Notes under the pieces: model-generated | What the model saw: only the letters and a program-made list of their open reading frames with translations | The model's database searches: none | Told to the model about the DNA's origin: nothing | Program-made: the position numbers and the translations under genes | Assembly: GCA_905178155.1 (NCBI GenBank) | Contig: CAJINV010000002.1 | Location: 3,052,515 to 3,116,514, forward strand | DNA length: 64,000 nucleotides | Direction of reading: 5' to 3' | Source of the DNA: Amoebophrya sp. A120 | Taxonomy: Eukaryota; Protista; Dinoflagellata | Part shown: piece by piece, positions 1 to 62,804 of the stretch | Position numbering within the stretch: position 1 is the first letter of the stretch | How the letters are laid out: every line of letters begins with the position of its first letter

Positions 1-3000
1 ATCGAAGACCACAAACCGTATCAAGTGTAAAAATGTCTGGGTCTGGAAGAGTGCATGTTTGCCATGCTTGTCTGGCATGACTCTCAAATCTGTCATGCAC
101 GTTGCCCAAGAGCGCCACTTTTCGTTTTCTGTCATGTAGAAACGCAGTTTGTCATGCAGAATAGGCAACACCTAGAAGCTCAGAAACTTGTCATGCTGAG
201 CGAGCACTTGTGGCCTCCTCATGATACGCCACCCAGCGTCACAAGTTTCCAGACCCAGACACTTTTACTTTTGATAAACCGGAGCAGATGCTGATTTTCC
301 ACGACGGCAGTCGGTTACCGTACTCCATTTACGACGTACGCATTGCAAATATGATGCCTGGGTCTGGAAAAGTGCTGTAACTTGTCATGCTACATCTGGA
401 TCGTGGAAAAATTTGTGTTGCATGATTACCAAAAGAGGTCCACTTTTGAACAAGTTTAGAGGCAGTTTCTCATGCAGGAATGGCATGACTATAGAGATCT
501 CACAGAACCTGTCATGCTAGGCAGTGCGTGCCAGACCGCGTGGGTCATGGAAAACCTGCATGACAAACCTAGCAACTTTCCAGACCCAGACACTTTTGCA
601 TTTGATACGACATGAAAAAGGACCATCCGGACTGTGAATCCTTTGCGGACTACGTGGAAAAAATCGTTTGCAACAGCGACATATCCAGTGCAAAAGTATC
701 GCGCTCGTACCAATTGCAAGTATGCGTGACAAATCTTGTCCTTAAGGTAAAACTGCATGACAAGTTCCAGCTCTCATGCTGAGCAAATTTGTAATGCAAT
801 TGATTGCACTAATACGATACTTTTGCAATGCATACGACATGGTGAAGCACAAGACGATTCTGTGTGAGCAGCGCGATTTCCTGGTGGAATGGAACTACTG
901 TTTTGAAAATGATGTTTACGGAGAAACGAAATCTTCGGAACATCAAATAGATCCGGACTATGCGGACGTCATTACGAAGTCGAGGCAGTTGTCGCAGTGC
1001 GTCAATGTCTGGCTGCGGCTTTTGAAAGCGAGCATTGCGAAGTTTGACAAGAATACGGTGAGTGTTGCCGATTACGTCAAAGCCTTCGAGTTGGATGATT
1101 TGGAACTAGCAGGGGAACGGGAACAACTGGAAGCTCCTGCTGTGAATGAGGAGTCCTTGCACATCCTGCGGGAACGACTTGCAATCATTCGGGAATCGCT
1201 GTATATTATGGGTTTTTCGTGTTTTTTTTCGTCTGAATCTCATGCGGTTTTGCTTTTGTCCTGCACAGTGATCTGTAGTCAACACGCCATGATGTGAACG
1301 ACGTAAATTTTTACAGTTACACTACAAAAACAAATATAAATTATCAATCACAGAACTGCAATCAAGGACGAAGCTTATTGGATATTCCGCGACAGCAGCT
1401 TTGCCTGGATTAACGAATTCTACTACGCCCGGCCGGGGTTGACTTTGCGGGAAACTCTTTTGCAGCGGCCGGTCTTGTTTGATGAGGAGAAGAGACTGAT
1501 CCTCGCAGCTGAAACGGAAGAAACAGAGGAAAGTGGAACCGAAGAAACAGAAGAAAATCAGAAAAACGTCGACTCTTGGTCCTCTTGGTGCGACGGACAT
1601 AGCAGCGGCAAAAAAGCCTCGCCGTATGAGACTAAGAACCGCAAGAACTTCTCCGCTTCCCCGCGACCACCGGACTTTTACTGCAAGCTGACGGATAGTT
1701 TTTCCTATGGGATCCCGTATGATCGGTGGGCCGTTTCGATCGAATATCTGGAAGCGAAGATGAAGCATCTGACGCTGTATGGGCGGTGGAGGTTGGACGA
1801 AATGAGTAAGCCGGTGACGGTGGAGGAAATTTGGGAAAAGCTGAAGCAAGAGCAACAGGTGGATTTGAATTTGTTGAATGAGAAAAATGGTGAACAAGTG
1901 GGACAAGGTCAAGGCAGCGGAGGTACTATCCCCGGTAGCACCACAGTTGTGAAGAGCAACAGGATCAGCAAGGGCTTCGTCGGCAATTACTGGCTCGACC
2001 AAAGTTTCGCAAGAAGACCTGACTCATCTTCTTCCGGTGGGGGTCGTAAACATGGTTTATTGAAGAAAACTATTTCTGTCAAGGCGGAGACGGTAGCTGA
2101 CCTGCTTGGCGACGATAGTGGTCAACTTGTTCCGCAGGATGAGACGACGAAAGTGCCGCAGGAGGAGGGGGCCGTCGAGGTATCACGATTACTTGTTCTA
2201 CTGTGGTTGCAGCGAATGCAAAGTGTTGCGTTCATGTTGCGAAAGGAGCAAGTGTCATGTCTATAATTCCTGGAAGTAGAGCATGCATGTTGTGCATTGC
2301 AGTACTGGTACTGTACGAATCATGATAAGTAAGTAAAAATTCCCATCGAATAGATCCGAAATGAAAATAAATACGAATGAATTAGGTACAGTCGCAAGAA
2401 ATCCTAGCGCCGGAGGTCAACAGCGACCAGAACCCGGATCGCAAAGTCAAGGCCCACCTGCTCCAAGAATTCGAGTCCAGCTTGTTACCACAACACGACG
2501 ATGAGTTATTTCTCAGCCCGCGGGATCAAGAACCTGAGGGTGAGGACAGCAAAAAGTTGTGTACAACTACTGGCGCCGCTGATAAAGCAGATGCAGATGG
2601 GGATGGTCACAACAGCTCTTCCGCCGAGGAGGTGGATGACGGTGAGGAGGTGAAATTCCCCCCCTACGAGAAAAACCGGCTTTACGACGGCGGCAATTTC
2701 GACCCCTCCGTCCCATTCTTAGTGTTTCGCGTGACGAAGATATGCATCGCAAAGTAGGCATCGCGCCACGTATTAATTGCATCACAAGAAATTTGTAAAC
2801 TTTGCAGCAACCTGAAAAGGATTTCTCATGCAGCAGCAGCACAAATACTTAACAATAAGACAAAGAAACCCAAACCGGCAGCGAAACAGCACATCTGTCA
2901 TCGCATGAATGCAATTAAAATACGAGCAGGATACAACTTTTGCAGAAGTTGATAGCAGAAACACGACAGCGGTAGCATGTTCCACTCTTTACGCCTCGCA

Positions 3001-6000
3001 GTGCCGGAGAACTTCATGACGCTGGGGGAGCCGTGCTCCGCCTTGGTCCGCGAACCGGGCACCCATGCGGCGCTGAGTGGGCAGGAGATTATTAAGCAGC
3101 AGGCGGGGCACGGGCGGCTGTATTTCTATGCATTGCAAATCCAAAAGTATCGCTCATCTAGTATAAAATGCATGACAAATTTCTTCAGCATGAGGAATGA
3201 AATTTGTAATGCAGATTTAACTTGACAGAGACATCTGTAATGCATTAATCCGATTAGAAGTACGATACTTTTGCAATTCATAATTTTTCAACGTTGGCGA
3301 TTCCGATTGACGTGGCCAGTCCGGACAGCTTGCCGTTTTACGTTGTATCCAGTGCAAAAGTACCGCACTCCTACTCGTATCGTAATCATGCATCACAAAT
3401 CTTTTTCTTGAGGTGCATCAGCATTACAAATTTCATTTCTCATGCTGAGGGAATTTGTGTTGCATTCATACGACGAGTGCGAGACTTCTGCCATTCATAC
3501 GTTGTGGTGGATAACAAAAAGCTGCTTCCCTGGAAGTGCTCAGCCGATCGATGGGTAACAGACGAGAGGAGCATCAAGCACCAACATGCCGCACGAGGAG
3601 GTAAGATTTGTTTGAAAATCCGTCGTAGAAGTAGTTGCAGAGTCAAGAAAAAGAATTAGAATAGACATAGAGCAGACGCATGGAAACAATAAGAATAACA
3701 CACCATCGTCAAAAAAATCTAACTCACCCTAAGTATAAGTACTTAGAAAATAAACCTGATTTGTTCCTGACATGTGGACCACGGGTGGAATAGAGATTGC
3801 TACATACTTGATCTATCATCACAGGCAACTACATCAAGGATAAAAGAAGTACCACCACCACCTCCTGTTCTTTTTCCGAAGCCCTTCCCAGCGGTCGCTC
3901 CCACGCGGTTTCGTCCTACTTTAAGAAGGGCTATGTCACAGAAGTTTTCTTCGACCTCGACACGGGGGAAGAGTGGCAGGATATTGCAGTGAACAGTGCC
4001 CCCCACCCCCAAAGTTGCAAAAATTTGTAATGCGAAGTTTCCAAATGAAACCTTTTTGTCATGCATGAAAGGAATATGAATCTTTCTGATGCAGATTCTA
4101 GTGTTGTTTCGCATCGCTTGCATGACAAGCACCGCTCTTGCTGGGATCTTTTGCAATACAAACTTTTGCTATTCACGATCGGAAATCTGTGATGCTGATA
4201 CAGAGGGCGAATGTTTCATTTGGAAAGGTTTGCAATGCAAATGCTTTCAAGTTCGGGGGTGGGGGCATTTTTCATTGTAATACAGGAGCCCCGGAATTCC
4301 TTCACCATTCAGGAGTACTGCGACCGGCAGTTCACCCAGCTCAAGAGCGACAAAGACGGGATGTGGGAAAGCGCGCCAAAGCACCGTGCCGACGCGGTAA
4401 AAATGATCGGCTTTCTTCGACAAGGTATGCAATGCAAAAGCATATCAAACTAGTTGTAGTACTCGTTTAATATCGCATTTTTCCAGCTCTGCGTGCGGGT
4501 GCGGAGGACGAGCACGACTAGTACGCTTTCTAATCTCAGTCAGCATGACTACAGGTTTTTTCTTTTTGTATCTTTGCAATTATTTCTGCTAGTACATATA
4601 CATATTACAACAGCAGTGCTGTAAAAACTTTTGCAATGCATACCAGGGCAGATGTGCCCCGTGCAGGTTTGCACAAAGAACATGTTGATGAGTGCCATGG
4701 TGTACCTTCCGCATGTATCAACTGCAAAAATGTCTGGGTTTGGAAGATTGCAACTTTTCATGCTGTTTGTGGACTCTAAAAAAAAATTGTATTGCATGAC
4801 CAGCAAGAGGGGTGGAATTTGTGCTACACGCACAGGGCATTTCTCATGCGGAAGGTCCATCAGGAAGGGTTCTAAAAATCTGTAATGCTAGGGCATACAT
4901 CACAGACTATCATGGGTCATGAGAAATAATATACATAACAAATCTTGCATCCTTCCGGACCCAGACACTTTTGCACTTGATAGCATGTCCGAGCGCAGGA
5001 GAGTCGCATTCAGCGGTTCCGGGAGAACTGGCTCCAGAGGGTTGAAAAAAGAAACTACGAAAAAAACATGAATTACCCACAGAAAAAGAACTATCCCCAT
5101 CCGATTTGTCCTGCAGAGCATGCATGAAAAACAAAAAATCCTGTGTAGTCTGTCGTCCAAAAAATGGATGGGGATTTGGTTGTTTTTCTTCGGATATCCC
5201 GGAAGCAGCTTGGTGGCACAAACAGAATGGTGGAACGAGTTGCACTAGTACCTCTGAGGAAGGCAACATAGAAGGAACTGGAGCATCAACAACTTCGTGG
5301 TATGACTGGAAGAAGGGAACATCAAGTAGAAATGGCTGGGAACAAGGAGCTTCCGGCACCGCTGAAAATGATGAGCTGCAAAAAGAAGCAGAGCAGCATG
5401 AGGAGCAAGACCTGCTAATCCTTGATGACGACGAGGAAAAAAACGATGCTGGAGATGTTGACTCAACCGCAGCAGGTGCTGGTTCACAAAAGCAAAAAAC
5501 CGCCGCCACCACTGCTGAAGAGAAAAATAAAACTCGGCGCCGCCCGTATCCTGAGTAAAAACGTCCCACACCAGAGTCAAGCTGGGAAATCTGCTAGACA
5601 AATCTGTCAGCTTTTGCTGTTGCGCATGACACGTTTGGCCTCGCAGTGTAATCCTGTTTAGCTTGTTCAGCAGCATCACAGTTCTAGCATATCATGCTGA
5701 TTCTAACATCACAAATCCCACAACACGACTAGAGACTGCCTCTCATGGGTCTCCGCATGAGAAACATTTTCAGCATGCCGATTTGCATTACAACTCTGGC
5801 GCGTCAAGCCATCTGCGGCCTGGGGCAGAGGGGGGGGCAAAGTGTGCTGCAATTCCTTTAGCATTACAACTCTGGCGTGGGGACGTTTTTACACAGGATA
5901 GCCCGGTCTTTTTCTATCTCCACGGCGATCAATACCGATCCAAAGTTCACTGCCCCATCACGAAATTGCCCAATTACGCCTACCCGAAAGCGACGGCCGG

Positions 6001-11735: not shown

Positions 11736-14700
11736 ATGGACGTGCAGCGAAAGCAAATCGACTCCTTCACGTTAACCGTGAAGAAGGCATCTCGCGAGGA
11801 TACGTCTGGTCCGTGGACCACTTGGACATGCGAACGCTTCAGTTTTGGTGTGGTCGCAACAATCAGTGGCGAAATTCCGAACGAGCAGGTGGAAAAGGCA
11901 CGGATTGATATTAAAACGGTGCGCCCTTCCAAGTGGAACTTCGACCAAGGGAAAGCAACGGCTCTTTCCGGTGACACGGCACTCATACTTCCGGCTCCAT
12001 TTCTACCTCTTGACACGGCAGCCAGGTTTGGTGTTTATCCTCAACCAGGAGGGTCGCCAGCGGATGACAACGAGCAGGTAGCGTCATACGAGACAAGTGA
12101 CGGGAAGTATCTCATGTGTATTGCTATCAAGTACCACGGGGACAACTGTCGCAGCATCGCTTCGAATGCAGTCGCTTGTTTGTTGGAAGCAACACTGACA
12201 CCAAAACGGCAGCAGGACCCGCGCCAGCAAAGAGCTGCTCCAACGGCAACGAAAGAGCCGGAAAATAAAAAATCAAATCGCAACTCCGTTGCAAGGACGC
12301 CTGCTGAAACGCCATACGAGGTGTGTTCGGCCCTCGCCGATGGATTTGATTTGAGTTTCTTGGCCCTGTTTGGGGCCCTCGTGATCACCTTGCGCTTGTC
12401 AAATTCGATGAGCGTGCTCTTTGACAAGGCCGGCTGGGAATCCTCATGGCTCTCGCAAAACTGCCGGAAGTGCAGCTCCCGGAAAGAAGTGCAGCTGCCG
12501 GGCTTTTTCACTGCGACAAAACGACTATTGGAGCAAATGGCGTGTCAGTTGCAAACAGAAGCGACCAGCAATTTTTTGCGCGCCTACACCATGACGATGG
12601 CAGAGTGCTTGCTCCTGCGAAAATCTAAATTGTCGCCGATTGTGTTTCCACTTGACGTAGCGCCGACAAGCGTCTTCGCTAGCTGTTTTCCGGACCGGCT
12701 CGCCTGGGTTGTGGATGTGATGAAGTATCTGACGCACGTCGAAATTTTCTCCATCGTCGGACCGTTTTCTTCAGATCCAGATGACGTACGGGAAAGGTTG
12801 CTGGCGATGCTTTTCGATGTGTCCTTTTGGACAGGCGCCGCCACGAGTAGGCTGACCGAACAAGCGGACAACAAAGACTCTCGACCCAACCTCTTCTATG
12901 CGGTGCTTGACCAGTACAACGGACACGGAGCACCATGGCAAGCAAAGAGCTGGGAGGAACGGATGCTCGAACAACTTCCAGCTCCGGCAGAGATGAAAAG
13001 GGCCCTCGTTTTTTTTGGCACATCGCACAAAATTATTTTTGAAGGGCTGCTCCGTCCGATGCTTGAAATCATGCGGAACGGCCGCGTGCCATTTGGAAAG
13101 CCCTTCGAGGCGCGCGAGCAGTGGCTGAAGCGTCTCATACGGTGCCTGCAAATACTGAGGGCTACAGCCGAGGAGTCCTCGAACATGTCGCTGCGGAGGT
13201 GGGTACACACACTCGAGACGGACGCAATGTCGGCAGTCTTACCCGGGAACAGTCGGTGTGTGTTTCTGTGTACCGTGGGACAGTCGGTATTTATTGGTCT
13301 GTCTACCAAGGGCTGTGCAGATCTTGCGAATCTGGACTCTATGCTCAGCAAGTGGTGTACACAAGATGGCACTGCGCCGGAGACTCAAGACGACTTTTCT
13401 GGTGGGTTTCGACCAGACGAAATGGTGCGCGCGATGCGCAACCCGGGCACGCAACTTTGGAGTAAGCCTATTGCCACAAAATACTTATGGTTTCAGCAGG
13501 CGGTTCTGAAGTGCAGTGCCACACCCTCGATTAAAGGCCTGAACTGGATGTGGTCTGTGGATGACATCGCGAAGTGTATTTGTAGTGTCAACTTCGTGTA
13601 TTGTGCGAAACAGGGGATCGACGTGCCTCGTCGTGGAGTTCGCAACGACCCTCCTGCAAGCGGCAGATGCGAGCGGGTGAACGACCCAGCGCAAACACCA
13701 CGGCTTCCTGCAACACCACTTGAGATGGTAGATGCGCTTCGCAAAGACGTGCGCACAGTTCCGTGGCTACAAGACGGCGGCGATTTCGATTCCGATTTGT
13801 CACGACCACTGGACTTGGTTGAGGCGCTGCTACGTCCCGCGAAATTTCTTTACCCGCATTCGCTGTCAGGACGGTTGGACTGGATCACCGCGTTCAAAGC
13901 TGTGGGATCCTCGTGCAAATTCGCACTTGCGGACGTGGAGGCGTGCGCTTGCAAGCCGGAATTTGTGTGCGGAACTGGTGCCGGGGCCCGGATGACGCGC
14001 AGCCAATTGAGTATGCTCGACGAGAGGGTGCGAGACTGGTTGCAAAGCATTGGGTACAATTTTCTCTACACGGACAAGTTTCTTCCGTTGATTGACGATG
14101 CCCGCGAGAAGCTCCGGGTGCATTTCACACCAAAGGCGCCGGGCAGCGCTTCCGCAGAAGATGCCGGATTGGCTGCGTCGCTCGGTTCGACGAATGAGCG
14201 GCTGGACCGTTTGGAACGAACGGTAGCTGAAAAAATGGACAACTTGACGAATGTGTTCGAGAAAGTTTTGGCGCAACAGGCCATGCTGTGCGAACTTTTC
14301 GCTGCGCAGCAAAAGGGAGATCAGGGAACCTGGAAAGGTGCTGTCGTGCCCAGTCTCAACTTGAAGAACGTGCCAGGAACGCCCACCATCCATCCGCCCA
14401 TGAAATTCGACATCGCCACGCCGGGACGAGCCAACTCGGCCTGCGGCAACGACGACGACGAAGCGTGCAAAAGCGCCTCGGACTCCTCTGAAGCGGTTTT
14501 GCTTTCGGACGGCGGCCTCCAAATCGAGGAGATTCAGTTTGATGCGCTGGAAGGGGAAAACGAGAAGACAGCTGTTGCATCCACCGACGAAGGAAGTACG
14601 AGACAGCACGCGGACTCTGTAGTAAATGCAGCTCCTTCCGCTCTCTCGTCCGCACGCAGCGCTCCTGCATCAACCACACTGATGGCATTATCAATGCGGA

Positions 14701-24513: not shown

Positions 24514-25560
24514 AATTAGTCGTGTTGCACAACTTCTAGCGAACAACTTCTACTCTTGAGTAGATGAAACGAAGATCGTATAAAGAAAACAACCGTAATA
24601 TCAAGAATGCTCGATTTCTAATAGTCTGTCCAGCTAGTCCTGATGCATCGTGTACAATTTGGAAATTTACTTTTGTTGTTGAATACATGAGGAAGATTGT
24701 GTACCAGAAAAAATTTTAAGAAACGCTGCAAGAAAAAAGAAAATCCGTATGATAATGATTCATGAAGTGAGTAAGTTTAAGTACAACCTGTTTGATTTCC
24801 AAGTGACAGTCAGTGCGACAGTTGACATTAGAGTCTGAATAATTTGAGATTGTTCTTTGACAAGAGATGTACCCATGAAATACAACTACCCATGATGAAA
24901 TACAACTTTTGTTTGGGACGGCAGGCACCATGATCTTTTGCTTTCACAGTTGTTAGTGTCATAGAAGAAAAAGGACTCGCACTCGGCAAGCTGGCGCAGG
25001 CGGTGCCGGTAGTGGTCTTGTCAATAGCTGCGACGAGGCATCATGCTGGTCGAGCAAAAAGGTCAATGGAGGCAACTGTGAATAGCGGTGTTCACTTAGT
25101 TGTTCTTCCCACCGGGAGTAGCAGATGTTGAAACAGCAGCTCCGTGTCTGATATTCCGGTACTTTGTAGTCGTTTGTAGTCCATTTCATTTTCAGAAAAA
25201 TAGGCTTCATCCGCGAAGCGAAGAGTAGACCGCAGCTGGTGTTTTTGCCATCAATTTTGTTGGCGTAGGATCCACTCGCTTCTTCAACGATTGCTCTTGG
25301 CGTCTCCAATCAGCCGCGTACAGAACTCACACAACATGATCATTTGCACGCTCGTTCGATTTCCCAAGCGCATTTATTTTCCTCTTTCCCTGATGTGTGA
25401 TGTAGCTTTTAGCTTTACGTTTACACCAACACCTTGCAAGCATTGGTTTTTTTCTCTGTAGTCTCCTGTCTTGTGCGCCGCCGGCGCTTGAGGAGCGAGT
25501 AGTTTTTCTACTCCGATAGAATTCAGATCGTAGCGCCCCCTGCAAGGCGCAGTTTTGTAT

Positions 25561-32148: not shown

Positions 32149-35478
<3,330 letters not shown>

Positions 35479-40691: not shown

Positions 40692-41473
40692 CTGGAGCTG
40701 CTGCAAGTGTAACGCGGATCAAATCTTTGCAAGGGCGGAGGTGGAGGCGAAGTAATCCTAATCGCCATGATCATGCGATGCATATACGCGAATATGTTGA
40801 AAAATTACTTGCATTCCAATCTACTGCAGTGGAGGAACAAAAAGGTAGTACCACTTGCAAAAAGACATGATAAGAAGCGACCCATCAAAAACCCATGAAA
40901 ATCTTCATCCCATCGTATTGAAATTTGAACGATAGTTGTAGCACGAGCTGCGCACTCACTCTTGGCTACAGAGAACTACTTTTGACGACACAAGAGGAAG
41001 GCACATTTTCTCCAACTGGCCCGCCTATTAAGGGGGAATCTTCATGATCTTTGAAAATTGTCGTGTTCATCTTCGAGCGCTGATTTTGTCGTTGTCGCTG
41101 CATCGTCAAGTGATGAGTAGAATCCCACATGCTCGTGAAATTAAATAAAAGTCGTGTCGTGGCACCAGAGCGAATCGCCTTCGTGGTTTTTGGCTCGTGA
41201 GCAGCTTGTGCTTGTTCTGGCGATGTCAGTCGATTTCTTTCGAGCGCTGTATTTTTGAGACGCGTGAGTGTCGCTATCCATCGTCTTTCGTTTATTTCGT
41301 GATACAGTTTACGACTGCTGTTGAGCGATTTTTCTCCTGTGTTGCAACCGGCGCAGCATGTTGTCCTGGGTACGGCTATGATTTTGACATCACCGGCCCA
41401 CCAGCCGTATTTCTTTATCAAAGTACAGCCTAGTTCTTGTTCACAGCTTGTTCTCTGCTTCACAAACAACAAG

Positions 41474-50700: not shown

Positions 50701-53124
50701 CAAATGTCCTCACTTCTGAGGGGTTTAGCAATAGAAATCCCGCGGCGGGAAATTGCATTCTGAAACCGAACAGGAAAAGAGGCAGTTTTGGACCACTTGG
50801 AGCCAATGCAGGACGGAAAGGATCTTCCGAATACGGTGGTGGCAACGAGCCGTCGATTGAAAAATCTGCAACCGAAAAGAACGACAAGCAGCTGTCGCGG
50901 ACGAATTCCTTAGTCGTGGATAAAAGGTTGAACTCCGCTTCATTACAATCTTCGGAGGACATCGAGAAAAAGGTTGACCGGACCATCACCGAAAAGCTGA
51001 AACGGCGGAACAACCCCTTTGAGGATAAAGACTACGAGTACAACGGAAGAGGCGGTCGCGGGGAAACGAGGGACAAGTCGGATCAGGATCACGACGAGAA
51101 GTTATCTTCTCGCCGGGAGAATATTAAGAAGTCATCTCGCGATCGGGATCGCCGCGGCCAAAGTGGCCGATCTTACTCTGCTCCCCGCAGCGAAAAAGGC
51201 CGGGGCCGGTCGAAGGAGGCGCGGCGGTATGATAACAAGAAAGACCACAAAGACGACTACGACAAGAAATCTAAGCGGGGGAACAAAACCGACAGTGTCG
51301 GGAAGTCTTCTTCCCCAGCAGGAGCTGCGCGAGGCACCAGGCTGGAAGAGCTGAAGAGCCGGTCGGGAAAAGATCTGAAAACTCCGGAGTTGCGGAGTGT
51401 CTCCCGCGGAGGAGGAAAAGGGACCGGAACTACGGGGCGGAAGAAAGACCGGGAAGATGAAGATCGGAAGAGAAGTGCGGCAGATGGCAGTACTTCTGGG
51501 CGTGACCGTCGCGGAGGTGATAAAAGTCGTGACAAAAAATCTCGGTCTCCGAAAACCTCCGAAAGCCTCCGTGTTGCTTCTGAGGAGCGCCGAGAGCGGG
51601 AGCGGAAGATCTGGGAAGGAAAACGAGCGAAAATCGTGGCGGAGAAAGAACACCTGTATGCGGAGCGGAAGAAAAATGCCTGCCCGCCGGAGCAGTGGTC
51701 GTTTGATCCGTTTGATTTTTTTCTGCACGGACAGGTCCCGGGAACGGTGACCAAGGACGGCGAAATGTTTGTGTGCAAACCCCTGTCGAGCGGCGTTTGG
51801 GCGACGGTAAGTAGTTATTTCATACGGAGGATCATGCCGATAGATCAACTTTTCTGAAGTTTTTCTTGACCTGCCCACGCATTTGTAGATATATAATGAT
51901 TAGCAGAGCCTTCTATAATCCCACTCTGAAAAACAACTCGAACTATTCTCATTGCTACTATACATCTTCAGGCCGCACCCGTTCCCGAAACCTCGGAACC
52001 CGCCCAACCCCCGACCTACCACACGAAGCAGAGCATGCACGACGACGACGAGACTGAAGAGACAGTGCCGCTGACGCCGCAAGAACGCAAGCGATCCTCT
52101 CCACCCGGTGGCCGTCGCGGCGATGGAAATAAAAACCGGTCGCGCTCACGCGAAAACCACAACCGGACTCTGAAGAAAGAGGACATCAAAGCTCGTCCCA
52201 CCCGGGACGAGTCCATCGCCCGGCCCCACCCGCACGAATACGACTATAACCGGCTGGGAAAGAACCGAGATCTAGTCCGCATGGGCGAGGACGAAAGGAG
52301 TGCGCAATACAAGGCCGCAAAGGGAGCAGGGGGTGCTGGAGGACAGATTTACAACCTGAAGGAGCCCATGAGCAGTAGAGGAGGAGAGCATCACTACCAG
52401 CGTGAGCTGCAAGGGACTTCCAGCTCCAGTTCCTTCACTACTAACAACGCCATCCTCCGTCCGGCGCGCGGTCGGGCGAACACGGGTGGCTCCGATTTTT
52501 CGCACCAGGAGATTAAGGTCGAGAAACAGTTGGACCACATGGCTGTGATTGACCCGAACCAGATCAATCTCGAGCACCTCCTATGAACTGCAAAAGTATC
52601 TTCATACTCGTACTGATCGCATTTATGCATTACAAATTTCTTTGTCACGCTAAATCAGCATGACAAATTCCATTTGTCATGCTGAGCTCGTTTGTATTGC
52701 ATTTGCAATACTACCAGTGCGATACTTTTGCAATGCATACCTCCCGAAGCCGGTCCAGCAGGTTTCCCGCGGGGGCGAAGTGTGGGCGGTGTTTTCGGAT
52801 CACGTGGATCACAAGGCGCTGTTTGATTGCAGCGACCAGTGCCGGGAGATCTTTCGGGAAAAGAAGAAGCAGAAGCGCGGAGGTGGGGGGGAGGAATCGG
52901 TACGCGGCGGGGGTGGAACCACAGCCGCGACGGCAGTCGGGTCTGCAATGACAAGTAGTAGCTCAGCAACAGGAAGTTCTAACACCCACAATATCAGCTC
53001 TAGTGCTGCGGGGTCGTCTTCCAGAGACCACACCTCCAGTTCGGCTTTTGGCGCCTCCTCTACTAATGCCGGATCCTATTCCAGTCGAAATCGGGTGGGT
53101 GGAAAGGGGGGGAAGCGGTGGTGA
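47709..53124 (+). CDS. Large disordered K/S/R-rich protein with RS-like segments; GT-AG intron 51807-51971 and one introner
   Basis: 1382-aa ORF; GTAAGT donor and TTCAG acceptor are in phase with ORF 52035, which then joins ORF 52660. Confidence 0.75.
52582..52739. mobile_element. Introner family B
   Basis: DR CCTCC/CCTCC. Confidence 0.9.
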
Positions 53125-54944: not shown

Positions 54945-57900
54945 ATGCAGACCCCTCCAAGAATACTTCCACCACAAGGAGGTCGGATGTCCCCCCGGGG
55001 ACCTCAGCAGCAGCGCAGTCCGCGGGGACCCAGGGTTGAGGCCGATGCGGGTTGTTTTATGGTGTTCTCAAATCGGTTACCTTCTCAACTGTTACATGAA
55101 TTTGTCATGCAGAACTACCATCATCATCCACAAGATCAAGCTGCTTCGCATGACAAATTTGTGAAGGGCTAAGCAGCACCTGAATCTGCGCGGGATTTGT
55201 AATGCATTTTTTGCAAGCTTCCCCCTTTTGCTTTTGCCATTCTTGCATTACAGATTCATGTAACAGTTGGGAATGTAACGTTTGAGAACGCCATATGTTT
55301 CGCGACCGCCATGTGGATCCGGTTTGCGGCGCTAGTGATCGGGGTCTTTTACTATCATGTGCAAAAGTATCGTACTCGTAGTAATCGCAGTCATGCATTA
55401 CAGATCTCCCTCTTAACCTAAATCCGCATTACAAATTCCATTTTTCATGCTGATGGAATTTGTCATGTGATTTATACTAGTACGATGCTTTGCATTGCAT
55501 ATTTACCTGATCATGGCGATCTCGGTGTTTACCAATTACCAGACGCACAAAGCCGACATCGACGCCGACCAGATGTACAATCCGGGCGGGAAGGATGCGT
55601 ATCACACCAAAAAGTGTTCACGTTAATACGGAATTTCGCATGCAGAAATCAATGCATGAGAGATAATGATGCCCAAATTTGTATTGCATAGCATGCATGA
55701 TAGCGAAAATTTGTCATGCATCACTGCCATGCCCCAAAACCGTTGAGTTAACGCTAACACTTTTTTGCTTGATAGTGCGCAAAAGCAGGCCATGCTCGGG
55801 GTTGCACCCTTCGAACAGGCCGCGGGCGCTATGCATTGCAAATATAATATGTCTGGGTCTGGAAGAGTGTTGTAACTTGTCATGCTACATCTGGATCGTG
55901 GAAAAATTTGTGTTGCATGAAGATTACCAAAAGAGGTCCACTTTTGAACAAGTTTAGAGGCAGTTTCTCATGCAGAAAAGGCATGATAGAGATCTCACAG
56001 AACCTGTCATGCTAGGCCGTCGTGCATGACAGACCGCGCGGGTCATGGAAAACCTGCATGACAAACCTAGCACTCTTCCAGACCCAGACTACATTTTTGC
56101 ATTTGATAGGCGCGGAGAAGAAACAAGAACAGCAGGAGGGGGAACAGCAGGAAAACGCGGAAGAGGCGGCCGCGGAGACCGGATCGGAGGAAGAAGAGGT
56201 CGAGGGCGAAGTAGAGACCGCGCCGGGGGAAGATGGACTACAGGAGGAAAACATTGCCGCTGAAGGAGAGGAAGCGAAGCTGGGAGAGGAAGTTGTAGAC
56301 GAAACGGGTGTATCAAATGCAAATATGTCTGGGTCTGGAAGATTCGGGGAGTTTGTCATGCGCATTCGTGCATGACCCAAGACACCTGTGATGCATGCTG
56401 TAGCATCACAGTTGTTCTCGCAAAGCCTTGTTAATGCCTATTCTGCATGAGAAATGCCCTCTCCGGGTGGCAAAAATTCCAGCCCCTTTTGCTGCTCAGG
56501 CAATACAGATTTTTCTATCATCGACAGTTAGCATCACAAATCCCATTCTTTCCAGACCCAGACATTTTTACAATCCATATGGTGCAGGAGCTGCTGGAGC
56601 CAGTACTACGCCGGAGGAACAGGCGGCAGCGGCGGAGGCTGCTGATGCTGCGGCTGCTGATGCTGCGACCACTGCAGCGACGTTGTCCCCGGCGGAAGAA
56701 GCAGCAGCCGCTGCTGCTGCGCAGGATGCTGCTGCGGCGGAAGACACTCGTGCCGCGGCGCAAGAGCTACTGGGCGCCAATCCTGCCGCTTCTTCCCCCG
56801 CTGGTGCAGCTGCCTCCTTCCTGGAAGATGATGAGCAGGTGGGAGATGAGCAAGCTGTTGTTGAGGAAGAGACTACGACTCCCGCAGGCGAGGACAATGA
56901 AGTTGAGGAAGTGGAGTATTCCCTGAAAATTAACCAGCCCCATCCAATTTGTCATGCAAAACATGTATAAAATTCTGTGTCTGTCATGCAAATCAAAAAG
57001 TGGTTGGGGATGGTTAATTTTCAGGCAATATGGAGCCGCCGGTGCACATCGAAACGAAGGATCATCTATGCACTGCAAAAGCGTTTATCGTACTCGTACA
57101 GTTACAATTGGAATTGCAGCCATGCAATACAAATGTCTTTCTTAAGACAATTCCGCACTACAAATTCAAATTATATTTCCCATGTTGGTGAGCAGATAAT
57201 TTGTGATCATGCGATTACTACTAGTACGAGCAGATTTGTGATGCAGCTTTGCAACGCATACCACCAAGAGCAGGACTATGCCACGGTGATTGAGTACACG
57301 GATGCCAAGGGCGCAAAACTGATGCAGAAGACCTTTTTCTTCCCGCCCGGGTACTTTCCCACAAGGGAGGCTTATAGCCCGCTCAGGTGTTACAATCTCA
57401 AACGTTACAATAGAATATAGAAATCTGTGATGCAAGAGTGCATGACCTAGCCAACTCTCATAGGATTGATTGCGCATGACAAGTTCCGGAGCCCGGAAGC
57501 CCACTACAGTCTGGCGATGGCGAAATTTGTATTGCAGAAAACGGAACGCTCTGCGAGTCTGTCATGCTCTGCTCATCACGCAATACAAAACCCAGACTCT
57601 ATTGTAACGTTTGAGATTGTAACGCTTGAGCAGGTCATAAGGCTGCCAAGGACTTTTTGCAGGGCAAGATGGACGAGATCAGCGGCGGGGACTCCGGACA
57701 CAAAGTCGTGAAACTCGACACGGTTCTACTCTACCGCCGCGTTTGGAACAACATCGAAGAGGGAAAGGACGGGAAACCGGCGACCAAGGTGAAAGAGTAC
57801 CGGGATCGAGTCTCGCAAATGGAGCGGATGATCACCCTGTTCGCCCGCGACCTCGTGCTTGCAGTGCTGTGGCTGGTATCAAACGCAAAAATGTCTGGGT

Positions 57901-60900
57901 CTGGAAGACTGCCAGGTTTGCCATGCATATTTTGCACAACCCATGATGCCTGTAATGCATGACCTAGCATCACAGATTTTAAAAGGGCCTTCTGATGCGT
58001 ATTCCGCATGAGAAACGCCGACTCCGCGTAGCACAAACTGAACTCTCTTGCTGGTCGTGCAATACAGATTTTTGTTACCCTCCAAAGACAGCATCACAGG
58101 TTGCAACCTTCCAGACCCAGAAACTTTTGCATTTGATAGCTGGTTCTGGCGTGCAGCACACGGAAACCGGTGGTCACGCTCATCGCCCTTACCCTCGTGT
58201 TATCAACTGTAAAAATCCCTGGATGTCTGGAAACTTGTGTTGCTGGTTGGCGTATCATGAGCCGGCCACAAGTGCTGGCTCAGCATGACAAGTTTCTGAG
58301 CTTCGAGGTGTAGCCTATTGTGCATGACAAACTGCGTTTCTGCATGACAAAAAAACGGGGCCCTTGGGTAACGTGCATGGCAGACTTTCGGGTCATGCTG
58401 GCAGAGCATGACAGACCTTCCATTCTTCCAGACCCAGACATTTTTAAAATCCATACGTGTTCGGTGTCGCGACCATGGTGCTCATGTACATTGGTCTGTG
58501 CACCGACCAGGTCGGGCCCTACCGCTTCGACCCGTCGGAAAGCGTATGCATTGCAAAACAACAACAAGTATCGTACTCGTACAAATGCATTACAAATTTC
58601 CGCAGCATGAGAAATGCGGAATTACCTTAAGAACAGGATTTGGAATGCATGACTGCAGTACAACGAGTATGATACTTTTGCACAGGATAAAGTGCTGGCT
58701 TGAACAAGACCGAAGCGGGTGCGACGGACACGACCCATCCGATACCAAATGCAAATATGTCTGGGTCTGGAAAAGTGCAACGTTTGTCATGCACGTTTTG
58801 CATGACGCATGAGGTCTGTGATGCATGCCCTAGCATCACAACTTCTGTGAGTTCTTTGCCATGCATTTTCCGCATGAGAAACTGCCTCTTGGGCTTCTCA
58901 AAAGTGTACAGCTTTATTGGTAATCATGCAACACAGATTTAGCATGACAAATTGCACTCTTGTTCCAGACCCAGACATGATTGCAATGCATACCCGAAAA
59001 CGGACGCCGATTTCCTCATGTGCGCGAAGCATCTGTTTGACGCCACCGAAGAACTGAACCTGGAGATCCAGAAAGCGCTGGCGGCAGATATGACCTGCTC
59101 AAACGTTACAATCTCAAACGTTACAATGGAGCCTGGATTATGTATTGCATGACGAGCATGACAGACTCGGACAGCATTCCGCTTTCTGCAATACAAATTT
59201 CGCCAGATTCTAATGCGGTTTGGGGCTCCGAAACTTGTCATGCGCAATCCTATGAGAATTGGCCAGATCTTGCACTTCTTGCATCACTGATTTCCACATT
59301 CTATTGTAACGTTTGAGATTGTTGTAACACCTGAGCAGGTTATAGCAGAAGGCAAAAAAGAAGAGAAAACTACCGACCAGGAGCCTGGAAAAGCTGCGGC
59401 GGAACAAGAGGCTGCATCCAACGAGGGTGCTGACGCCGCCGGCCAAGGGTCTGCAGGTGTAGAACCAGCAGCGGCGGCTGGTGATGGTCTTAGTGAAGAG
59501 CAAGCTGGTACAGTAGCGGTTGGCGATGGGACGCCGGCAGGAGCTGGTGCAGGGGAAGGAGCAGCTGCAGGAGATGAACAAGCAGCAGGCGACGCTGCGG
59601 CGGGGGACGTCGCCGCGGGTGGTGATGGAATTACGCCGGCAGAAGAAGCCGCTACCGTTACCGAAGCTGGCGGAGCTGGAGACGGGCTCACGGCGCAACA
59701 ACCAGCAGTGCAGCAGCAACCTGCAGGACCACAACCAGCGGCCTCCTTCGTCTCGAAAAAGGAGCACATCTTCACGGTGAATCAGCAGAAGCTCGTCATG
59801 GCGACCCGGCTCGGCAACGAAGCCTCCAAGATCGAATTGCACCAAGCCGATCGATATGCATTGCAAATGTATCGTACTAGTTGCAGTTAAATGAAATTTG
59901 TAATGCGGATTTGCCTCAGCGAAAATGCATATTAACAGCAAGCACTACGAGTACGATACTTTTGCACAGGATAATCGACGGAAGAAGACTGGAGTTGTGC
60001 TCCGACAGAGCGTCGGCGAGAACAAGAACTCGTTCCTTGGTGTCGACGTTTCTCAGAAGAAGAAAAAGCAACCACCAAGCAGTGCGGTGGAAAACGTCGG
60101 CGACCTGCTTACCGACACGGAGACAGGTGTTGCGGATGCTGGTGGGGAGAAGCTTGCTGACATCGCCCCACAAACGGTTGACGGCTCCGCACAACCTTCC
60201 GAGGGCGAAGAAGAACTGAGTGAAGCTGAAAAAGCCGCGATTCTTGCAGCTTCTGCTGGCGGTGTATGCATTGCAAAAGTATCGTACTAGTATGAATTGC
60301 ACTACAAATTTCCTCAGCATGAAAAATGGAATTTGTAGTGCGGATTTGCCTTTAAGAGAGAGATTTGTAATGCATGGCTGCAATTACTACGAGTGCGATA
60401 CTTTTGCACAGGATACGGCGCTGCTGGTGCATCTTCTGGATCCGGCTTGTCTGAGGCTGAAAAAGCTGCCATCCTCGCAGCTATCAAATGTAAAAATGTC
60501 TGGGTCTGGAAGAATGCAACTTGTCATGCTAAATCTGAAGCATGCAAAAATCTGTGTCGGATGATTACCAAAAGTCGTCCAGTTTTGACCAAGTCGGGAG
60601 GGAGTTTCTCATGCAGGATAGGCATGAGAGAGATCGCGCAAAATCTGCCATGCTAGGTCCTGCATTCCAGGCTTTATGGGTCATGGAAAAGCTGCATGAC
60701 AAATCGCGCATTCTTCCAGACCCAGACATTTTTACATTTGATAGCAGCCTCAGGTGAACAAGATGGGGTGCAAGAAAGTACGGACGGTTTGTCTGAAGCC
60801 GAAAAAGCTGCGCTCGGGGCTGCACAACAGGATCAGCAAGCTGGTGTTCTTGCGGATGGAGCAACCCCAACCTCGCCCGGAGGTGATCCTACAGAGTTGA

Positions 60901-62804
60901 AGATAGGAGACGAAGTGACAGATGCGGTTTACGACGGGGACCTGCCACAAGTCACCGTCGACGGGTATGGCGTGCTCAAACGTTACATTTTCAACTGTTA
61001 CATGAATTTGTAATCCAACAATGGCAAAAGTGAAAGGGGGGACCTTGCGCGTCTTGCATTACAGATTTGGCACAGATTGTAATGCTATTTAGCTTGTCGA
61101 AACCTTGTCATGCGAAGAAGCTTGATCGCGAGAAGCATGATAGTGATTCTGCATGACAAATTCATGTAACAGCTGAGAATGTAACGTTTGAGAGTCCCAT
61201 TACGGGGAATCTGCTTCGAAGGTCACCGCCTTTGCCCATCACGAACGTGTATGCATTGCAAAATTTCCGTCGTGGTCCTGCTGCAACACTAAATGCGGTA
61301 ATGATACAACGTGAACATGTAGCTGACGGGTCGTGTGTGATGCTGATGATGATGGTACGTATCTGCTGACTCCGCATGACAGAATCCATGATTTTTGATT
61401 GTCGTCCAAATAAAGTTTGTCATGCAATTACTGCTAGCATCGGATGCTTTTGCAATGCATAATGGGATCTGATCTCCAACATTGTCACCGAATTCCGCAC
61501 CAGTACCTACGCGCACCCGGATCTGGGTGACACGAGTGACGACGAGCAGATTTCCACTTTTCGGTATGATGAGATAAGATTGGTTTCTAGGAGTTGATCT
61601 TTTTTTTGTCATGCGTAAGGGTGCAACATGGGAACGAATTTTTTCATCTGTCATGCGGCGCAGAATAGATCGAAATCGTTTACATAGAAAATTTTTTATC
61701 ACAGGTTCTTTGTCTCCCTGCTCTTCGTCCTGTTCTCTCTGGTCGCCGTTTCCGCCGGTCTGTTTGTCTATGACAAGGAGGAGGAATGGGAGGCGCTGCC
61801 GTGCTTATGAGAGTGCACAACCCCCCCTGCCCCCCCTCATTTGTCATGTTGCAAAATGCTTAATTAAGAGCCTTGGCTCTTGGCACTGTTTGCATGACAA
61901 GTTTTGGCGGCCCAAATAGCACTACAGTCCTGTCAAATTTGTCATGCAAATCCTGTATTCTTGCTGACGCTTGTATTGCTGTTCATTCAATAGAAATGAG
62001 GGGGAGGCGGGGGGGTTTTGCACTTTCATAGTGCTGCGCAGAGTACTACTACGAACTGGACACCACCAACCCTATCAAATGCAAAAATGTCTGGGTCTGG
62101 AACATTCTAAACTTGTAATGCTGCCTGTCTCTGGATTCTAAAAAGATTTGTATTGCATGACCAGCAGAAGGACTCCAGTTTGTGCTACGCGGGGATGGCA
62201 TTTCTCATGCGGTAGAGGCATCACAAAGTCCTCTACAAATCTGTGATGCTAGGGCATGCATCACAGACATCACGAATCATTCAAAATAAGCATGACAAAC
62301 CTGGCAATCTTCCAGACCTAGACACTTTTGCAGTTGATAAACCCCAACAACGTGCAAATCATCAAGATCCCGGCCAAGGAATACGAGGCCCGAGGCACCA
62401 CGCGGTCCCCGACCAGCCCGGGCGCCGGGACGCAATATCAAACAAAAAAAGTTCGTCACACTCACCCATGTTGCGCATTTTTGCAATAAGAAACTTTCTG
62501 TCATGCGCAAAAATGCATCACAGCCAAACTGCAGAAGGGATGCCCCCAGTGTTTCTGCAATACAGGGGGCAGCTGTATTGCTAAAATTTGTAAAATGCAA
62601 AGCCTGCAAATTAGTGACTCTGAGTCTGATTGTGGCAAACTTTGTTCTCGCCATACGCAAGCAGGGGCTTCTTCTAGTAGTCAACGACAACCGACATCGA
62701 ATCGGCAACCGACGAATCCGCAGGTGGTCATGGGCGAACCAGTGCCGGTCGCGCAGCCGGGAGCTGGCTACGAGAGGGCCATGGCTGTGCAGCACTTTGT
62801 ATAA
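54945..62804 (+). CDS. Predicted four-transmembrane protein with two long Ala/Glu-rich loops; 22 element-derived introns
   Basis: Continuous frame from ATG 54945 to TAA 62804 after excisions; hydrophobic segments WIRFAALVIGVFYLIMAISVF, DLVLAVLWLVLAC, VVTLIALTLVFGVATMVLMYIGL and FFVSLLFVLFSLVAVSAGLFVY. Confidence 0.8.
55058..55295. mobile_element. Introner family H
   Basis: DR TGTTT/TGTTT. Confidence 0.88.
55353..55501. mobile_element. Introner family B
   Basis: DR TTTAC/TTTAC. Confidence 0.9.
55600..55774. mobile_element. Introner, singleton family
   Basis: TATCACACCAAAAAGTGTT / AACACTTTTTTGCTTGATA; DR ATGCG/GTGCG. Confidence 0.85.
55830..56108. mobile_element. Introner family A
   Basis: DR GGCGC/GGCGC. 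Confidence 0.9.
56311..56579. mobile_element. Introner family A
   Basis: DR GGGTG/TGGTG. Confidence 0.88.
56917..57030. mobile_element. Introner family D
   Basis: TATTCCCTGAAAATTAACCAGCCCCA / TGGGGATGGTTAATTTTCAGGCAATA; DR TGGAG/TGGAG. Confidence 0.9.
57067..57260. mobile_element. Introner family B, degenerate
   Basis: DR TCATC/CCACC; frame restored. Confidence 0.78.
57373..57639. mobile_element. Introner family H subtype with duplicated subterminal CTCAAACGTTACAAT
   Basis: DR AGGCT/AGGCT. Confidence 0.9.
57877..58138. mobile_element. Introner family A
   Basis: DR GCTGG/GCTGG. Confidence 0.9.
58201..58455. mobile_element. Introner family A (inverted relative of 33861-34114)
   Basis: DR CGTGT/CGTGT; shares the variant TIR AAAAATCCCTGGATGTCTGG. 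Confidence 0.9.
58545..58689. mobile_element. Introner family B
   Basis: DR AAGCG/AAGTG. Confidence 0.88.
58743..58992. mobile_element. Introner family A
   Basis: TAC..ATA; DR TCCGA/CCCGA. Confidence 0.88.
59089..59344. mobile_element. Introner family H subtype (inverted relative of 57373-57639)
   Basis: DR GCAGA/GCAGA. Confidence 0.9.
59855..59973. mobile_element. Introner family B, internally deleted
   Basis: DR ATCGA/ATCGA. Confidence 0.88.
60265..60415. mobile_element. Introner family B
   Basis: DR CGGTG/CGGCG. Confidence 0.9.
60482..60743. mobile_element. Introner family A
   Basis: DR GCAGC/GCAGC. Confidence 0.9.
60966..61201. mobile_element. Introner family H (ends ATT; inverted relative of 55058-55295)
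   Basis: DR ACGGG/ACGGG. Confidence 0.88.
61250..61461. mobile_element. Introner family B-like, degenerate
   Basis: TATGCATTGCAAAA / TTTTGCAATGCATA; DR ACGTG/ATGGG. Confidence 0.78.
61564..61704 (+). other. GT-AG intron retaining introner remnants
   Basis: GTATGAT..TTTTATCACAG, with internal TGTCATGC motifs; GT-AG splicing gives TFRFFVSLL. Confidence 0.7.
61806..62030. mobile_element. Introner family C-like
   Basis: TATGAGAGTGCACAACCCCCCC / GGGGGGGTTTTGCACTTTCATA; DR GTGCT/GTGCT. Confidence 0.9.
62073..62339. mobile_element. Introner family A
   Basis: DR AACCC/AACCC. Confidence 0.9.
62436..62655. mobile_element. Introner, singleton family with imperfect TIR
   Basis: TAT..ATA; DR CGCAA/CGCAA; frame restored to the stop. 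Confidence 0.82.

What the first reader, a model, noticed from the sequence alone, without database searches (positions are those of the whole stretch)
19..62655. Genome-wide system of TAT..ATA inverted-repeat elements acting as precisely removed non-canonical introns
Seen: 63 elements of roughly ten TIR families sit inside coding sequence of 8 of the 9 genes, typically flanked by a 5-bp DR of arbitrary sequence. Removing element plus one DR restores the frame and conserved motifs such as QSGRLID, ESFKAEVVG and LSPEDK. Most offer no GT-AG pair at any position of the DR-sliding window. Established: inverted-repeat introners with short DRs have been described in Amoebophrya, and to my knowledge their excision machinery is unresolved. 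Inference: DNA transposon-type insertion is coupled to an RNA (or DNA) excision activity that reads the paired TIR ends rather than GT-AG.
Basis: partly seen in the sequence, partly recalled or inferred. Interest (0 to 1): 0.93.

Follow-up and report, generated by a model that had tools for sequence, protein, structure and literature searches.

The report
Transposon introns cut at fixed register
Genes of the marine parasite Amoebophrya A120 are riddled with already described hairpin-ended jumping elements that are missing from RNA-like contigs despite lacking normal splice signals, and here every usable junction fits one fixed cut position, likely read by a modified spliceosome that checks only two bases.

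Summary
In detail: 63 TAT..ATA inverted-repeat elements with 5-bp flanking repeats lie in 8 of 9 genes, and removing element+5 nt restores the frames. The window is Amoebophrya sp. A120. These are the introner elements of Farhat et al. 2021, so the system is already known. That paper left the cut points 'variable/unknown'.

New here: 11 junctions in RNA-like contigs all remove element+5 nt and share only one register, 1 nt before TAT and 4 nt after ATA. The four joins listed beside a DNA-like run are absent from it. Among 281 strand-oriented elements, only intron U+2 (0 variants, 6.9 expected) and A-7 (2, 8.5 expected) are conserved beyond the repeat's baseline. These two do not pair with each other, and +1 and the last four bases are free.

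Best reading (0.55): a relaxed spliceosome uses U+2 and a likely branch A at -7, with the stem holding the ends together. Main rival (0.25): a non-spliceosomal nuclease/ligase. No lariat, transposase or snRNA could be tested. Only two junctions exclude the next register.

The parts
1..10449 (+). Gene 1 (5' end outside window), 15 elements: 19-276, 337-607, 682-834, 2741-2954, 3127-3282, 3346-3499, 3982-4282, 4426-4642, 4716-4982, 5074-5196, 5547-5900, 6468-6744, 6967-7235, 7492-7649, 7697-7868; predicted GT-AG introns near 1201, 2180 and 3601
   Evidence: no reads laid here; GT-AG intron ends guessed and not closed
11736..16115 (+). Gene 2: intronless 1459-aa ORF with no element (the ninth gene)
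17493..24513 (+). Gene 3, 8 elements: 18534-18779, 18826-19610 (holding nested 18947-19577), 19817-19967, 20013-20334, 21298-21550, 21588-21894, 22972-23162
   Evidence: open over 1576 codons after excision; no RNA cover at 22972
26503..31766 (+). Gene 4, 4 elements (26580-27656, 28089-28238, 29387-29666, 30365-30479) and 2 GT-AG introns (27800-27994, 28919-29096)
   Evidence: all six joints in X3, X4 and X5, depth 0 in X1
32447..35478 (+). Gene 5, trypsin-like (HtrA-like) protease, 6 elements: 33025-33298, 33579-33744, 33861-34114, 34154-34362, 34504-34692, 34782-35044
   Evidence: Pfam Trypsin_2 on two exons; open frame; RNA join at 33025 (table 8)
36655..40691 (+). Gene 6, P-type ATPase, 3 elements: 39451-39600, 40242-40393, 40471-40629
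   Evidence: first exon 100% identical to annotated A120 protein P0001, which is reproduced exactly only at offsets -1 or 0
41378..46800 (+). Gene 7, 5 elements: 44328-44483, 44642-44859, 44924-45076, 45662-45826, 45949-46211
   Evidence: all five skipped by one X3 contig
47709..53124 (+). Gene 8, 1 element (52582-52739) and GT-AG intron 51807-51971
   Evidence: both joints in X3
54945..62803 (+). Gene 9, 21 elements: 55058-55295, 55353-55501, 55600-55774, 55830-56108, 56311-56579, 56917-57030, 57067-57260, 57373-57639, 57877-58138, 58201-58455, 58545-58689, 58743-58992, 59089-59344, 59855-59973, 60265-60415, 60482-60743, 60966-61201, 61250-61461, 61806-62030, 62073-62339, 62436-62655; predicted GT-AG intron 61564-61704
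   Evidence: one open frame of about 1020 codons after excision; no RNA joint among the rows shown
30364..30483 (+). Intron with unambiguous ends: starts 1 nt before TAT and ends 4 nt after ATA (AT..AA); DR matches 2 of 5
   Evidence: joint 30363>30484 with no slide, in X3, X4 and X5
29386..29670 (+). Intron whose RNA joint excludes the 0/+5 register
   Evidence: compatible offsets -5 to -1
44327..44487 (+). Intron whose RNA joint excludes offsets of -2 or less
   Evidence: compatible offsets -1 and 0
44641..44863 (+). Intron whose RNA joint excludes offsets of -2 or less
   Evidence: compatible offsets -1 and 0
26579..27660 (+). Longest element: a 307-bp family member with an insert of about 770 bp, still removed as one 1082-nt intron
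4425..4646 (+). The one element in the window with GT-AG ends at an equivalent offset; they fall exactly on the -1/+4 register

Best explanation
The elements are short non-coding inverted-repeat insertions with 5-bp flanking repeats, likely DNA transposons, that RNA-like contigs lack by exactly element+5 nt in a register fitting 1 nt before TAT and 4 nt after ATA, and they are likely removed by a relaxed U2-type spliceosome that would read only intron U+2 and a predicted branch A at -7.

Step 1 (inferred): an integrase-type transposase from elsewhere inserts the element in either orientation and duplicates 5 bp.
Step 2 (shown for 11 junctions): removing N-TAT..ATA-NNNN rebuilds the target exactly. 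The 5' exon keeps DR bases 1-4 and the 3' exon keeps base 5.
Step 3 (shown statistically): U+2 and A-7 are the two positions conserved beyond the repeat's baseline; +1 and -4..-1 are arbitrary.
Step 4 (inferred): U+2 would contact U6 as in GT-AG introns and A-7 would be the branch nucleophile a fixed 7 nt from the end. The terminal stem would replace U1/U2AF in bringing the ends together and would have to be unwound before catalysis. Because TAT read backwards is ATA, either end supplies either signal, so any site and either orientation gives a removable intron.
For: Register: 11 of 11 element joints seen remove element+5 nt, and only offset -1 is common to all; 2 exclude offset 0 and 3 exclude offsets of -2 or less. 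The chance under uniform sliding is 0.004, or 0.026 allowing for the post hoc choice. Annotated P0001 fits -1 or 0.

Constraint: U+2 is present in 281 of 281 elements while its mirror position -5 varies in 11 (p=0.001). Against the deep-repeat baseline, +2 has 0 variants vs 6.9 expected (p=0.001) and -7 has 2 vs 8.5 (p=0.008); +3, +4, -5 and -6 are neutral; deeper positions show no strand bias (20/818 vs 25/822).

Context: all 3 RNA-supported and 5 predicted GT-AG introns in the window start GTA, so N-TA-T differs from them only at +1. In Farhat Table S4 all 9 predominant A120 sites are NT-.. and all 9 A25 sites are TT-... U+2 pairs with U6 A51 in the yeast P complex (10.1101/212811). A120 has U2, U4, U5, U6 and 83 of 89 spliceosomal proteins but no detected U1 RNA, whereas a GT-AG-splicing Amoebophrya has U1. 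Mirror pairing is predicted for repeat positions 8-20 in 52 of 60 folded introns.
Against: G+1, A-2 and G-1, called invariant in the P-complex structure, are all free here (AG ends 31 of 281, GT..AG 7 of 281). That is a large departure for a spliceosome. A branch 7 nt from the end and buried in a stem is mechanically awkward (inference). A-7 has 2 exceptions, and its p value is about 0.05 after correcting for six tests. Whether canonical introns share A-7 is inconclusive: 2 of 3 RNA-supported and 3 of 5 predicted in the window, but 1 of 5 among ab initio calls in the loci. Only 2 junctions exclude the 0/+5 register, both from one sample; the runs are contigs labelled 'RNA?' and drop rare forms. 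Only 11 of the 38 elements in the laid stretches had a joint among the rows shown. No lariat, snRNA or transposase was seen.
Confidence: 0.55

Rival explanations
1. A non-spliceosomal endonuclease plus ligase (as for tRNA or Ire1 introns, or the unknown euglenid route) recognises the terminal stem and cuts 1 nt before it and 4 nt after it.
For: A fixed geometry relative to the repeat, free terminal dinucleotides and predicted terminal stems. Euglenid nonconventional introns have a similar stem and are reported to leave as circles (PMC11282704). No U1 RNA was detected in A120.
Against: Terminal pairs are broken in 7 of 281 (+2:-5) and 7 of 281 (+4:-7) elements, while the identities of U+2 and A-7 are kept. 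Repeat positions 4-7 can pair in only 50-76% of elements. In the RNA-confirmed intron at 29387 the predicted stem starts only at repeat position 8, yet its joint fits the same register. The two kept bases match spliceosomal signals.
Confidence: 0.25
2. A relaxed spliceosome uses U+2, but the branch lies further upstream and the 3' site is set by stem geometry; conservation of A-7 has another cause or is chance.
For: The U+2 signal is much stronger than the A-7 signal, and two strand-called elements have G at -7.
Against: No other strand-specific position appears in the last 34 nt, and elements work in both orientations, so an internal branch motif would be needed on both strands.
Confidence: 0.12
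3. The elements are cut out of DNA (programmed excision, as for ciliate internal eliminated sequences) before transcription.
For: They have transposon-like ends and a clean restored target.
Against: X1 (flat depth about 44, DNA-like) has depth 0 for the 4 joined forms listed and has contigs spanning the elements at 33025 and 34504 whole. The strand-specific constraint follows transcription direction. Contigs drop rare forms, so a stage-specific minority is not excluded.
Confidence: 0.03
4. The joints are reverse-transcriptase template-switch artefacts across hairpins flanked by direct repeats.
For: A hairpin plus short direct repeats is the classic setting for this artefact (recalled, no call).
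Against: The joint at 30365 has only 2 of 5 DR matches and no slide. Eight genes need the removal to be translatable. One contig skips five elements in a row. U+2 is under strand-specific selection.
Confidence: 0.03
5. The elements spread by reverse splicing into mRNA followed by reverse transcription, not by DNA transposition.
For: All 62 outer elements lie in coding sequence and none in 12.4 kb of non-coding DNA (15.7 expected).
Against: Both orientations are equally common (42:34, 22:22). A 5-bp duplication and terminal inverted repeats fit DNA-level insertion.
Confidence: 0.04

Closest known systems
Introner elements / non-canonical introns of Amoebophrya sp. A120 (Farhat et al. 2021, PMC7789003; also 58 A120 families in Gozashti et al. 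2025, PMC12130899)
   Same: Same organism. Inverted repeats start with TAT, then 7 looser bases and AAA; 3-5 nt (5-bp in Fig. S19) direct repeats; RNA-supported non-GT-AG removal; many families.
   Different: [quoted passage not shown] The 22 of 58 A120 rows I read in the 2025 dataset give mixed TSD lengths and mechanism labels. A single -1/+4 register and specific constraint on U+2 and A-7 are not stated in the parts I read.
Nonconventional introns of euglenids (PMC3935182; PMC11282704)
   Same: Non-canonical ends, a terminal stem, direct repeats at the junctions, a proposed MITE origin and an unknown enzyme.
   Different: Euglenids keep CA/TG at +4,+5/-7,-6 and pyrimidine|purine junctions, with +n pairing to -(n+2). 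Here the kept bases are U+2 and A-7, junction bases are free, and +n pairs with -(n+3).
MITE-derived non-canonical introns of Fritillaria borealis (seen through PMC11282704 and 10.1101/2025.08.15.670264)
   Same: TIR transposons turned into introns and removed by an altered U2 spliceosome.
   Different: Fritillaria has preferred ends (AG-AC, AG-AT) and a TAC target. A120 elements insert at arbitrary 5-bp targets and keep U+2 rather than G+2.
Canonical U2 (GT-AG) spliceosomal introns (10.1101/212811)
   Same: U at +2, A at +3 as in this genome's GTA donors, and a possible branch A.
   Different: No G+1, no terminal AG, no free polypyrimidine tract outside the stem.

Membership tests
Amoebophrya A120 introner elements (Farhat 2021) | Occur in the A120 genome | tested here: met
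   exon 36631-39450 is 100% identical to a protein named Amoebophrya sp. A120
Amoebophrya A120 introner elements (Farhat 2021) | Inverted repeat starting TAT, 7 looser bases, then at least three A | tested here: met
   TAT nearly invariant; A at repeat positions 11-13 in 242, 253 and 269 of 281 5' ends
Amoebophrya A120 introner elements (Farhat 2021) | 3-5 nt direct repeat at the boundaries | tested here: met
   37 of 62 perfect 5-bp DRs, 0 of 62 at 4 or 6 bp
Amoebophrya A120 introner elements (Farhat 2021) | Removed from transcripts without GT-AG ends | tested here: met
   11 joints in RNA-like contigs, none GT-AG at -1/+4
Amoebophrya A120 introner elements (Farhat 2021) | Repeated in families across unrelated genes | tested here: met
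   12 multi-copy groups with window members; the two largest hold 17 and 21 window elements
MITE / non-autonomous TIR DNA transposon | Terminal inverted repeats, short, no coding capacity | tested here: met
   the only long ORF inside an element (26725-27579) has no Pfam match
MITE / non-autonomous TIR DNA transposon | Target-site duplication proven by an empty allele | tested here: inconclusive
   the 5-bp DR fits, but no empty site was seen in X1 and no orthologous locus among the fetched loci
MITE / non-autonomous TIR DNA transposon | Cognate autonomous element with transposase | not testable with these tools
   no genome held; no long coding TAT..ATA element in 556 kb of loci
U2-type spliceosomal intron | G at +1 | tested here: not met
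   G 87, A 82, C 60, T 52 of 281
U2-type spliceosomal intron | U at +2 | tested here: met
   281 of 281
U2-type spliceosomal intron | AG at the 3' end | tested here: not met
   31 of 281, near composition
U2-type spliceosomal intron | Branch adenosine | tested here: inconclusive
   A-7 conserved beyond baseline (2 vs 8.5 variants); function not shown
U2-type spliceosomal intron | Excised as a lariat by snRNPs | not testable with these tools
   only contigs covered the locus
Euglenid nonconventional intron | Terminal stem joining the intron ends | tested here: met
   predicted only: 52 of 60 for repeat positions 8-20
Euglenid nonconventional intron | CA at +4,+5 and TG at -7,-6; pyrimidine|purine junctions | tested here: not met
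   +4 is T, -7 is A, junction bases are free (definition)
Euglenid nonconventional intron | Excised as full-length circles | not testable with these tools
   needs RNA experiments

The most novel reading that the evidence does not exclude
Amoebophrya A120 runs an 'any-site' splicing route: a spliceosome that has dropped three of the four invariant terminal bases and U1-type donor reading. It takes its only two sequence signals (U+2 and a branch A fixed at -7) from the transposon's own symmetric TAT/ATA ends and lets the terminal hairpin set both cuts. That makes every insertion, at any 5-bp target and in either orientation, a perfectly removable intron, and the same N-T-A donor rule would cover the TT- introns of strain A25.
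Probability: 0.5. Interest if true: 0.8.

Novelty: already known. Interest (0 to 1): 0.52.

Why it matters
The elements themselves are published, but how more than 60% of this organism's introns are removed without GT-AG is an open question, and the published account left the cut points unknown. A fixed -1/+4 register fixes the true exon ends, which matters for protein sequence wherever the repeats differ. It also turns the mechanism into direct tests: where to look for the branch, which two bases to mutate, and which product (lariat or circle) to expect. If the spliceosomal reading holds, it shows how far the spliceosome's active site can relax and how a transposon can become harmless at any insertion site.

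Tried and rejected
- No genome was held, so no search for transposase or U1/U6 variants was possible. Rfam found 0 matches in the window at E<=0.1.
- No RNA holder was listed on record; X3-X6 are guessed RNA. Raw-read runs X9-X11 covered only element copies from other loci and no exons, so they say nothing on these junctions.
- Joint rows set aside as cross-matches within or between repeat copies (side 20-36 letters): 8 of 15 shown and 9 of 15 shown (X1 only). A further 29 and 19 rows were not shown. Gene 3 had no RNA cover at 22972.
- The pairings 23279-25518 and 33579-34692 from my first scan were rejected (spurious; two separate elements).
- Searches for annotated proteins of genes 1 and 3, which hold three more register-deciding junctions (337, 5074, 22972), found nothing (length limits apply). 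The representative-protein search never ran, so these junctions stay open.
- The repeat pattern had 0 hits in viral contigs.
- No long coding TAT..ATA element was found in the loci.
- An ab initio finder for GT-AG introns was too noisy (1 of 3 RNA-supported introns recovered exactly); its A-7 test is inconclusive.
- An early idea that DR position 1 mismatches are special did not hold in the larger set (27, 22, 15, 23, 15 by position).
- No pairing preference of intron +1 with the last four bases.
- Whether the second assembly is A120 itself was not settled.
- Earlier scan findings held nothing for this genome.
Full report
Identity. The window is eukaryotic DNA with nine genes, all on the + strand. 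The first exon of a P-type ATPase (36631-39450) is 100% identical to a 1186-aa protein named Amoebophrya sp. A120. No whole genome was held.

Observation. Pairing TAT and ATA ends by inverted-repeat score alone gave 32 pairs with a perfect 5-bp flanking direct repeat (DR), and 0 in each of three shuffles. Curation by end similarity and frame restoration gave 62 outer elements and one nested one, 63 in all, in 8 of 9 genes. Of the 62 tabulated, 37 have a perfect 5-bp DR, 16 have one mismatch, 7 have two and 2 have three; none has a 4- or 6-bp repeat. The last element found (5074-5196) matches 1 of 5. Removing element+5 nt leaves no internal stop in seven genes and in the 1480-codon 3' part of gene 1; gene 9 is open across 21 elements. 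I did not close the guessed GT-AG introns at the start of gene 1. Only 3 of 62 elements offer GT-AG or GC-AG at an offset that gives the same mRNA. With elements from a second assembly they fall into 12 multi-copy groups with window members, 8 singletons and the nested pair. They occur in both orientations (42:34 and 22:22 in the two largest families) and in all phases (22, 15, 19).

RNA evidence and the cut register. Contigs of runs X3-X5 (one sample; RNA status is the tool's guess, but they join GT-AG introns) and of X1 (flat depth about 44, DNA-like) were laid on two stretches holding 38 elements. Eleven elements had a joint among the rows shown: six in X3 and five in X3, X4 and X5. I set aside 17 shown rows as cross-matches between repeat copies; 48 rows were not shown. 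All 11 joints remove element+5 nt. The only offset common to all starts the intron 1 nt before TAT and ends it 4 nt after ATA. The joint at 30365 allows only that offset; 29387 also excludes 0/+5; 44328 and 44642 exclude -2 or less. The chance under uniform sliding is 0.004, or 0.026 with the post hoc choice. The annotated ATPase is reproduced only at offsets -1 or 0, but it may rest on the same RNA data. X1 has depth 0 for the four element joints listed beside it and spans two elements whole, so removal is at RNA level in the dominant form. Limits: two junctions carry the exclusion of 0/+5, and contigs drop rare forms.

What the machinery appears to read. A scan of metagenome contigs returned loci from a second assembly with the same families (149 loci held, 556 kb). 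A detector blind to the end triplets (recall 48 of 63 on the window) found 390 elements. A coding model (49 of 51 confident calls right on the window) oriented 220, one of which was dropped as off by one. With the 62 outer window elements this gives 281. In the -1/+4 register, +1 is any base (G 87, A 82, C 60, T 52), the last four bases are arbitrary (AG 31, GT..AG 7), and the two arms have the same composition except at their first position: U+2 never varies, while its mirror at -5 varies 11 times (p=0.001). Against deeper repeat positions in the two main families, +2 has 0 variants for 6.9 expected (p=0.001) and -7 has 2 for 8.5 (p=0.008). Positions +3, +4, -5 and -6 are neutral, and there is no strand bias deeper in. 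Since +2 pairs with -5 and -7 with +4, and each of those pairs is broken in 7 elements, what is kept is base identity, not the terminal pairs. Caveats: the window set allowed only one triplet mismatch, the loci were selected on an exact match at one end (blind to strand), and strand calls err about 4% of the time. A terminal stem is predicted for most introns (52 of 60 at repeat positions 8-20), but positions 4-7 often mismatch, and at 29387 the predicted stem starts at position 8.

Mechanism. Shown: element anatomy, removal length, the register for 11 junctions, and the two constrained bases. Inferred: insertion by a transposase acting in trans, and removal by a relaxed U2-type spliceosome in which U+2 contacts U6 (as in the yeast P complex, 10.1101/212811), A-7 is the branch point and the stem replaces U1/U2AF. 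In favour: this genome's GT-AG introns all start GTA; published Table S4 lists only NT- donors among the predominant A120 sites and TT- for A25 (some of these may be aligner choices); U2, U4, U5 and U6 are reported but not U1; a GT-AG-splicing relative has U1. Against: three of the four invariant terminal bases are free, the branch would lie in a stem, A-7 has two exceptions, and my test of A-7 in canonical introns was inconclusive. I put this at 0.55, a stem-reading nuclease/ligase at 0.25, a spliceosome with another branch at 0.12, and DNA excision, template-switch artefact and RNA-mediated spread at 0.03-0.04 each.

Comparison with what is known. Farhat et al. 2021 describe these elements in this strain: TAT-starting repeats, 3-5 nt DRs, 29,850 repeated introns and RNA-seq support. 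They pass every membership feature tested, so the system is already known. [quoted passage not shown] I found no statement of a fixed register or of U+2/A-7 constraint in searches or in the parts read. Most subscription papers are not in the library, figures (including the Fig. 3 logos and Figs. S19-S25) are not held, and I did not see 36 of the 58 A120 rows or files 13-14 of the 2025 supplement; any of these could bear on that claim. The elements work like euglenid nonconventional introns and Fritillaria introners in outline but fail the euglenid end motif, and they fail G+1 and AG for canonical U2 introns.

What I saw of each paper. PMC7789003: abstract, passages, sections 10, 11, 12 and 16, supplement passages and part 3 of 5. 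PMC12130899: passages, supplement passages, 22 of 58 A120 rows. PMC11282704: passages and section 6. PMC11453091, PMC3935182, PMC12005148, PMC13326754, 10.1101/2025.08.15.670264 and 10.1101/212811: passages only. Roy et al. (10.1101/2020.10.14.339549): search listing only. Henriet et al. 2019: only through the review and the preprint. Helentron features and template-switch artefacts are recalled. Earlier scan notes on other genomes show similar introns elsewhere; they are unchecked leads and did not change my reading.

Verdict. The feature is real, correctly counted and already published as a system. The session adds a fixed cut register and a two-base constraint that make the open mechanism directly testable. 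Interest 0.52; the novel case (an any-site spliceosomal route) has probability 0.5 and interest 0.8.

Noticed in passing
window 25556-26285; L074 from 1178: An intergenic multi-copy repeat (X1 depth up to about 16,000 against 44) with short sub-terminal inverted repeats and a GC hairpin before its 3' end. It lacks the TAT..ATA plus 5-bp DR pattern and resembles a non-autonomous Helentron/HINE (features recalled, not tested).
   Followed up: partly
window 26850-27615: A GC-rich multi-copy insert of about 770 bp inside the 26580 element (X1 depth 2,200-3,500), with no Pfam match for its 285-codon ORF; type unknown.
   Followed up: partly
whole window: No element in 12.4 kb of non-coding DNA (15.7 expected) or in the 4.4-kb gene 2, but 21 in the 3.1-kb, most GC-rich gene 9 (6.8 per kb). 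Targeting bias or selection against UTR introns; unexplained.
   Followed up: partly
window 60482-60557 and 52651-52740 (runs X9, X11): Raw RNA reads of the same species label hold element ends joined to foreign exon-like flanks (63-178 reads), so some copies elsewhere appear unspliced or come from DNA; these runs cover no exons of this window.
   Followed up: no
window 18947-19577: A nested 631-bp element with a near-perfect 42-bp inverted repeat and no relative among the fetched loci; probably a young, rarer family.
   Followed up: partly
window GT-AG introns (1201, 1303, 2180, 3601, 27800, 28919, 51807, 61564): All start GTA (four GTAT), and three predicted acceptors end ATCACAG. U at +4 is reported to be favoured when U6 m6A is reduced (10.1101/2025.08.15.670264, passage), a lead for A120 U6.
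   Followed up: partly
L001-L149: A second public assembly (JACKZZ01 contigs; organism not named by the tool) carries the same element families at up to about 95% identity, 390 elements in 556 kb of partly overlapping loci.
   Followed up: yes
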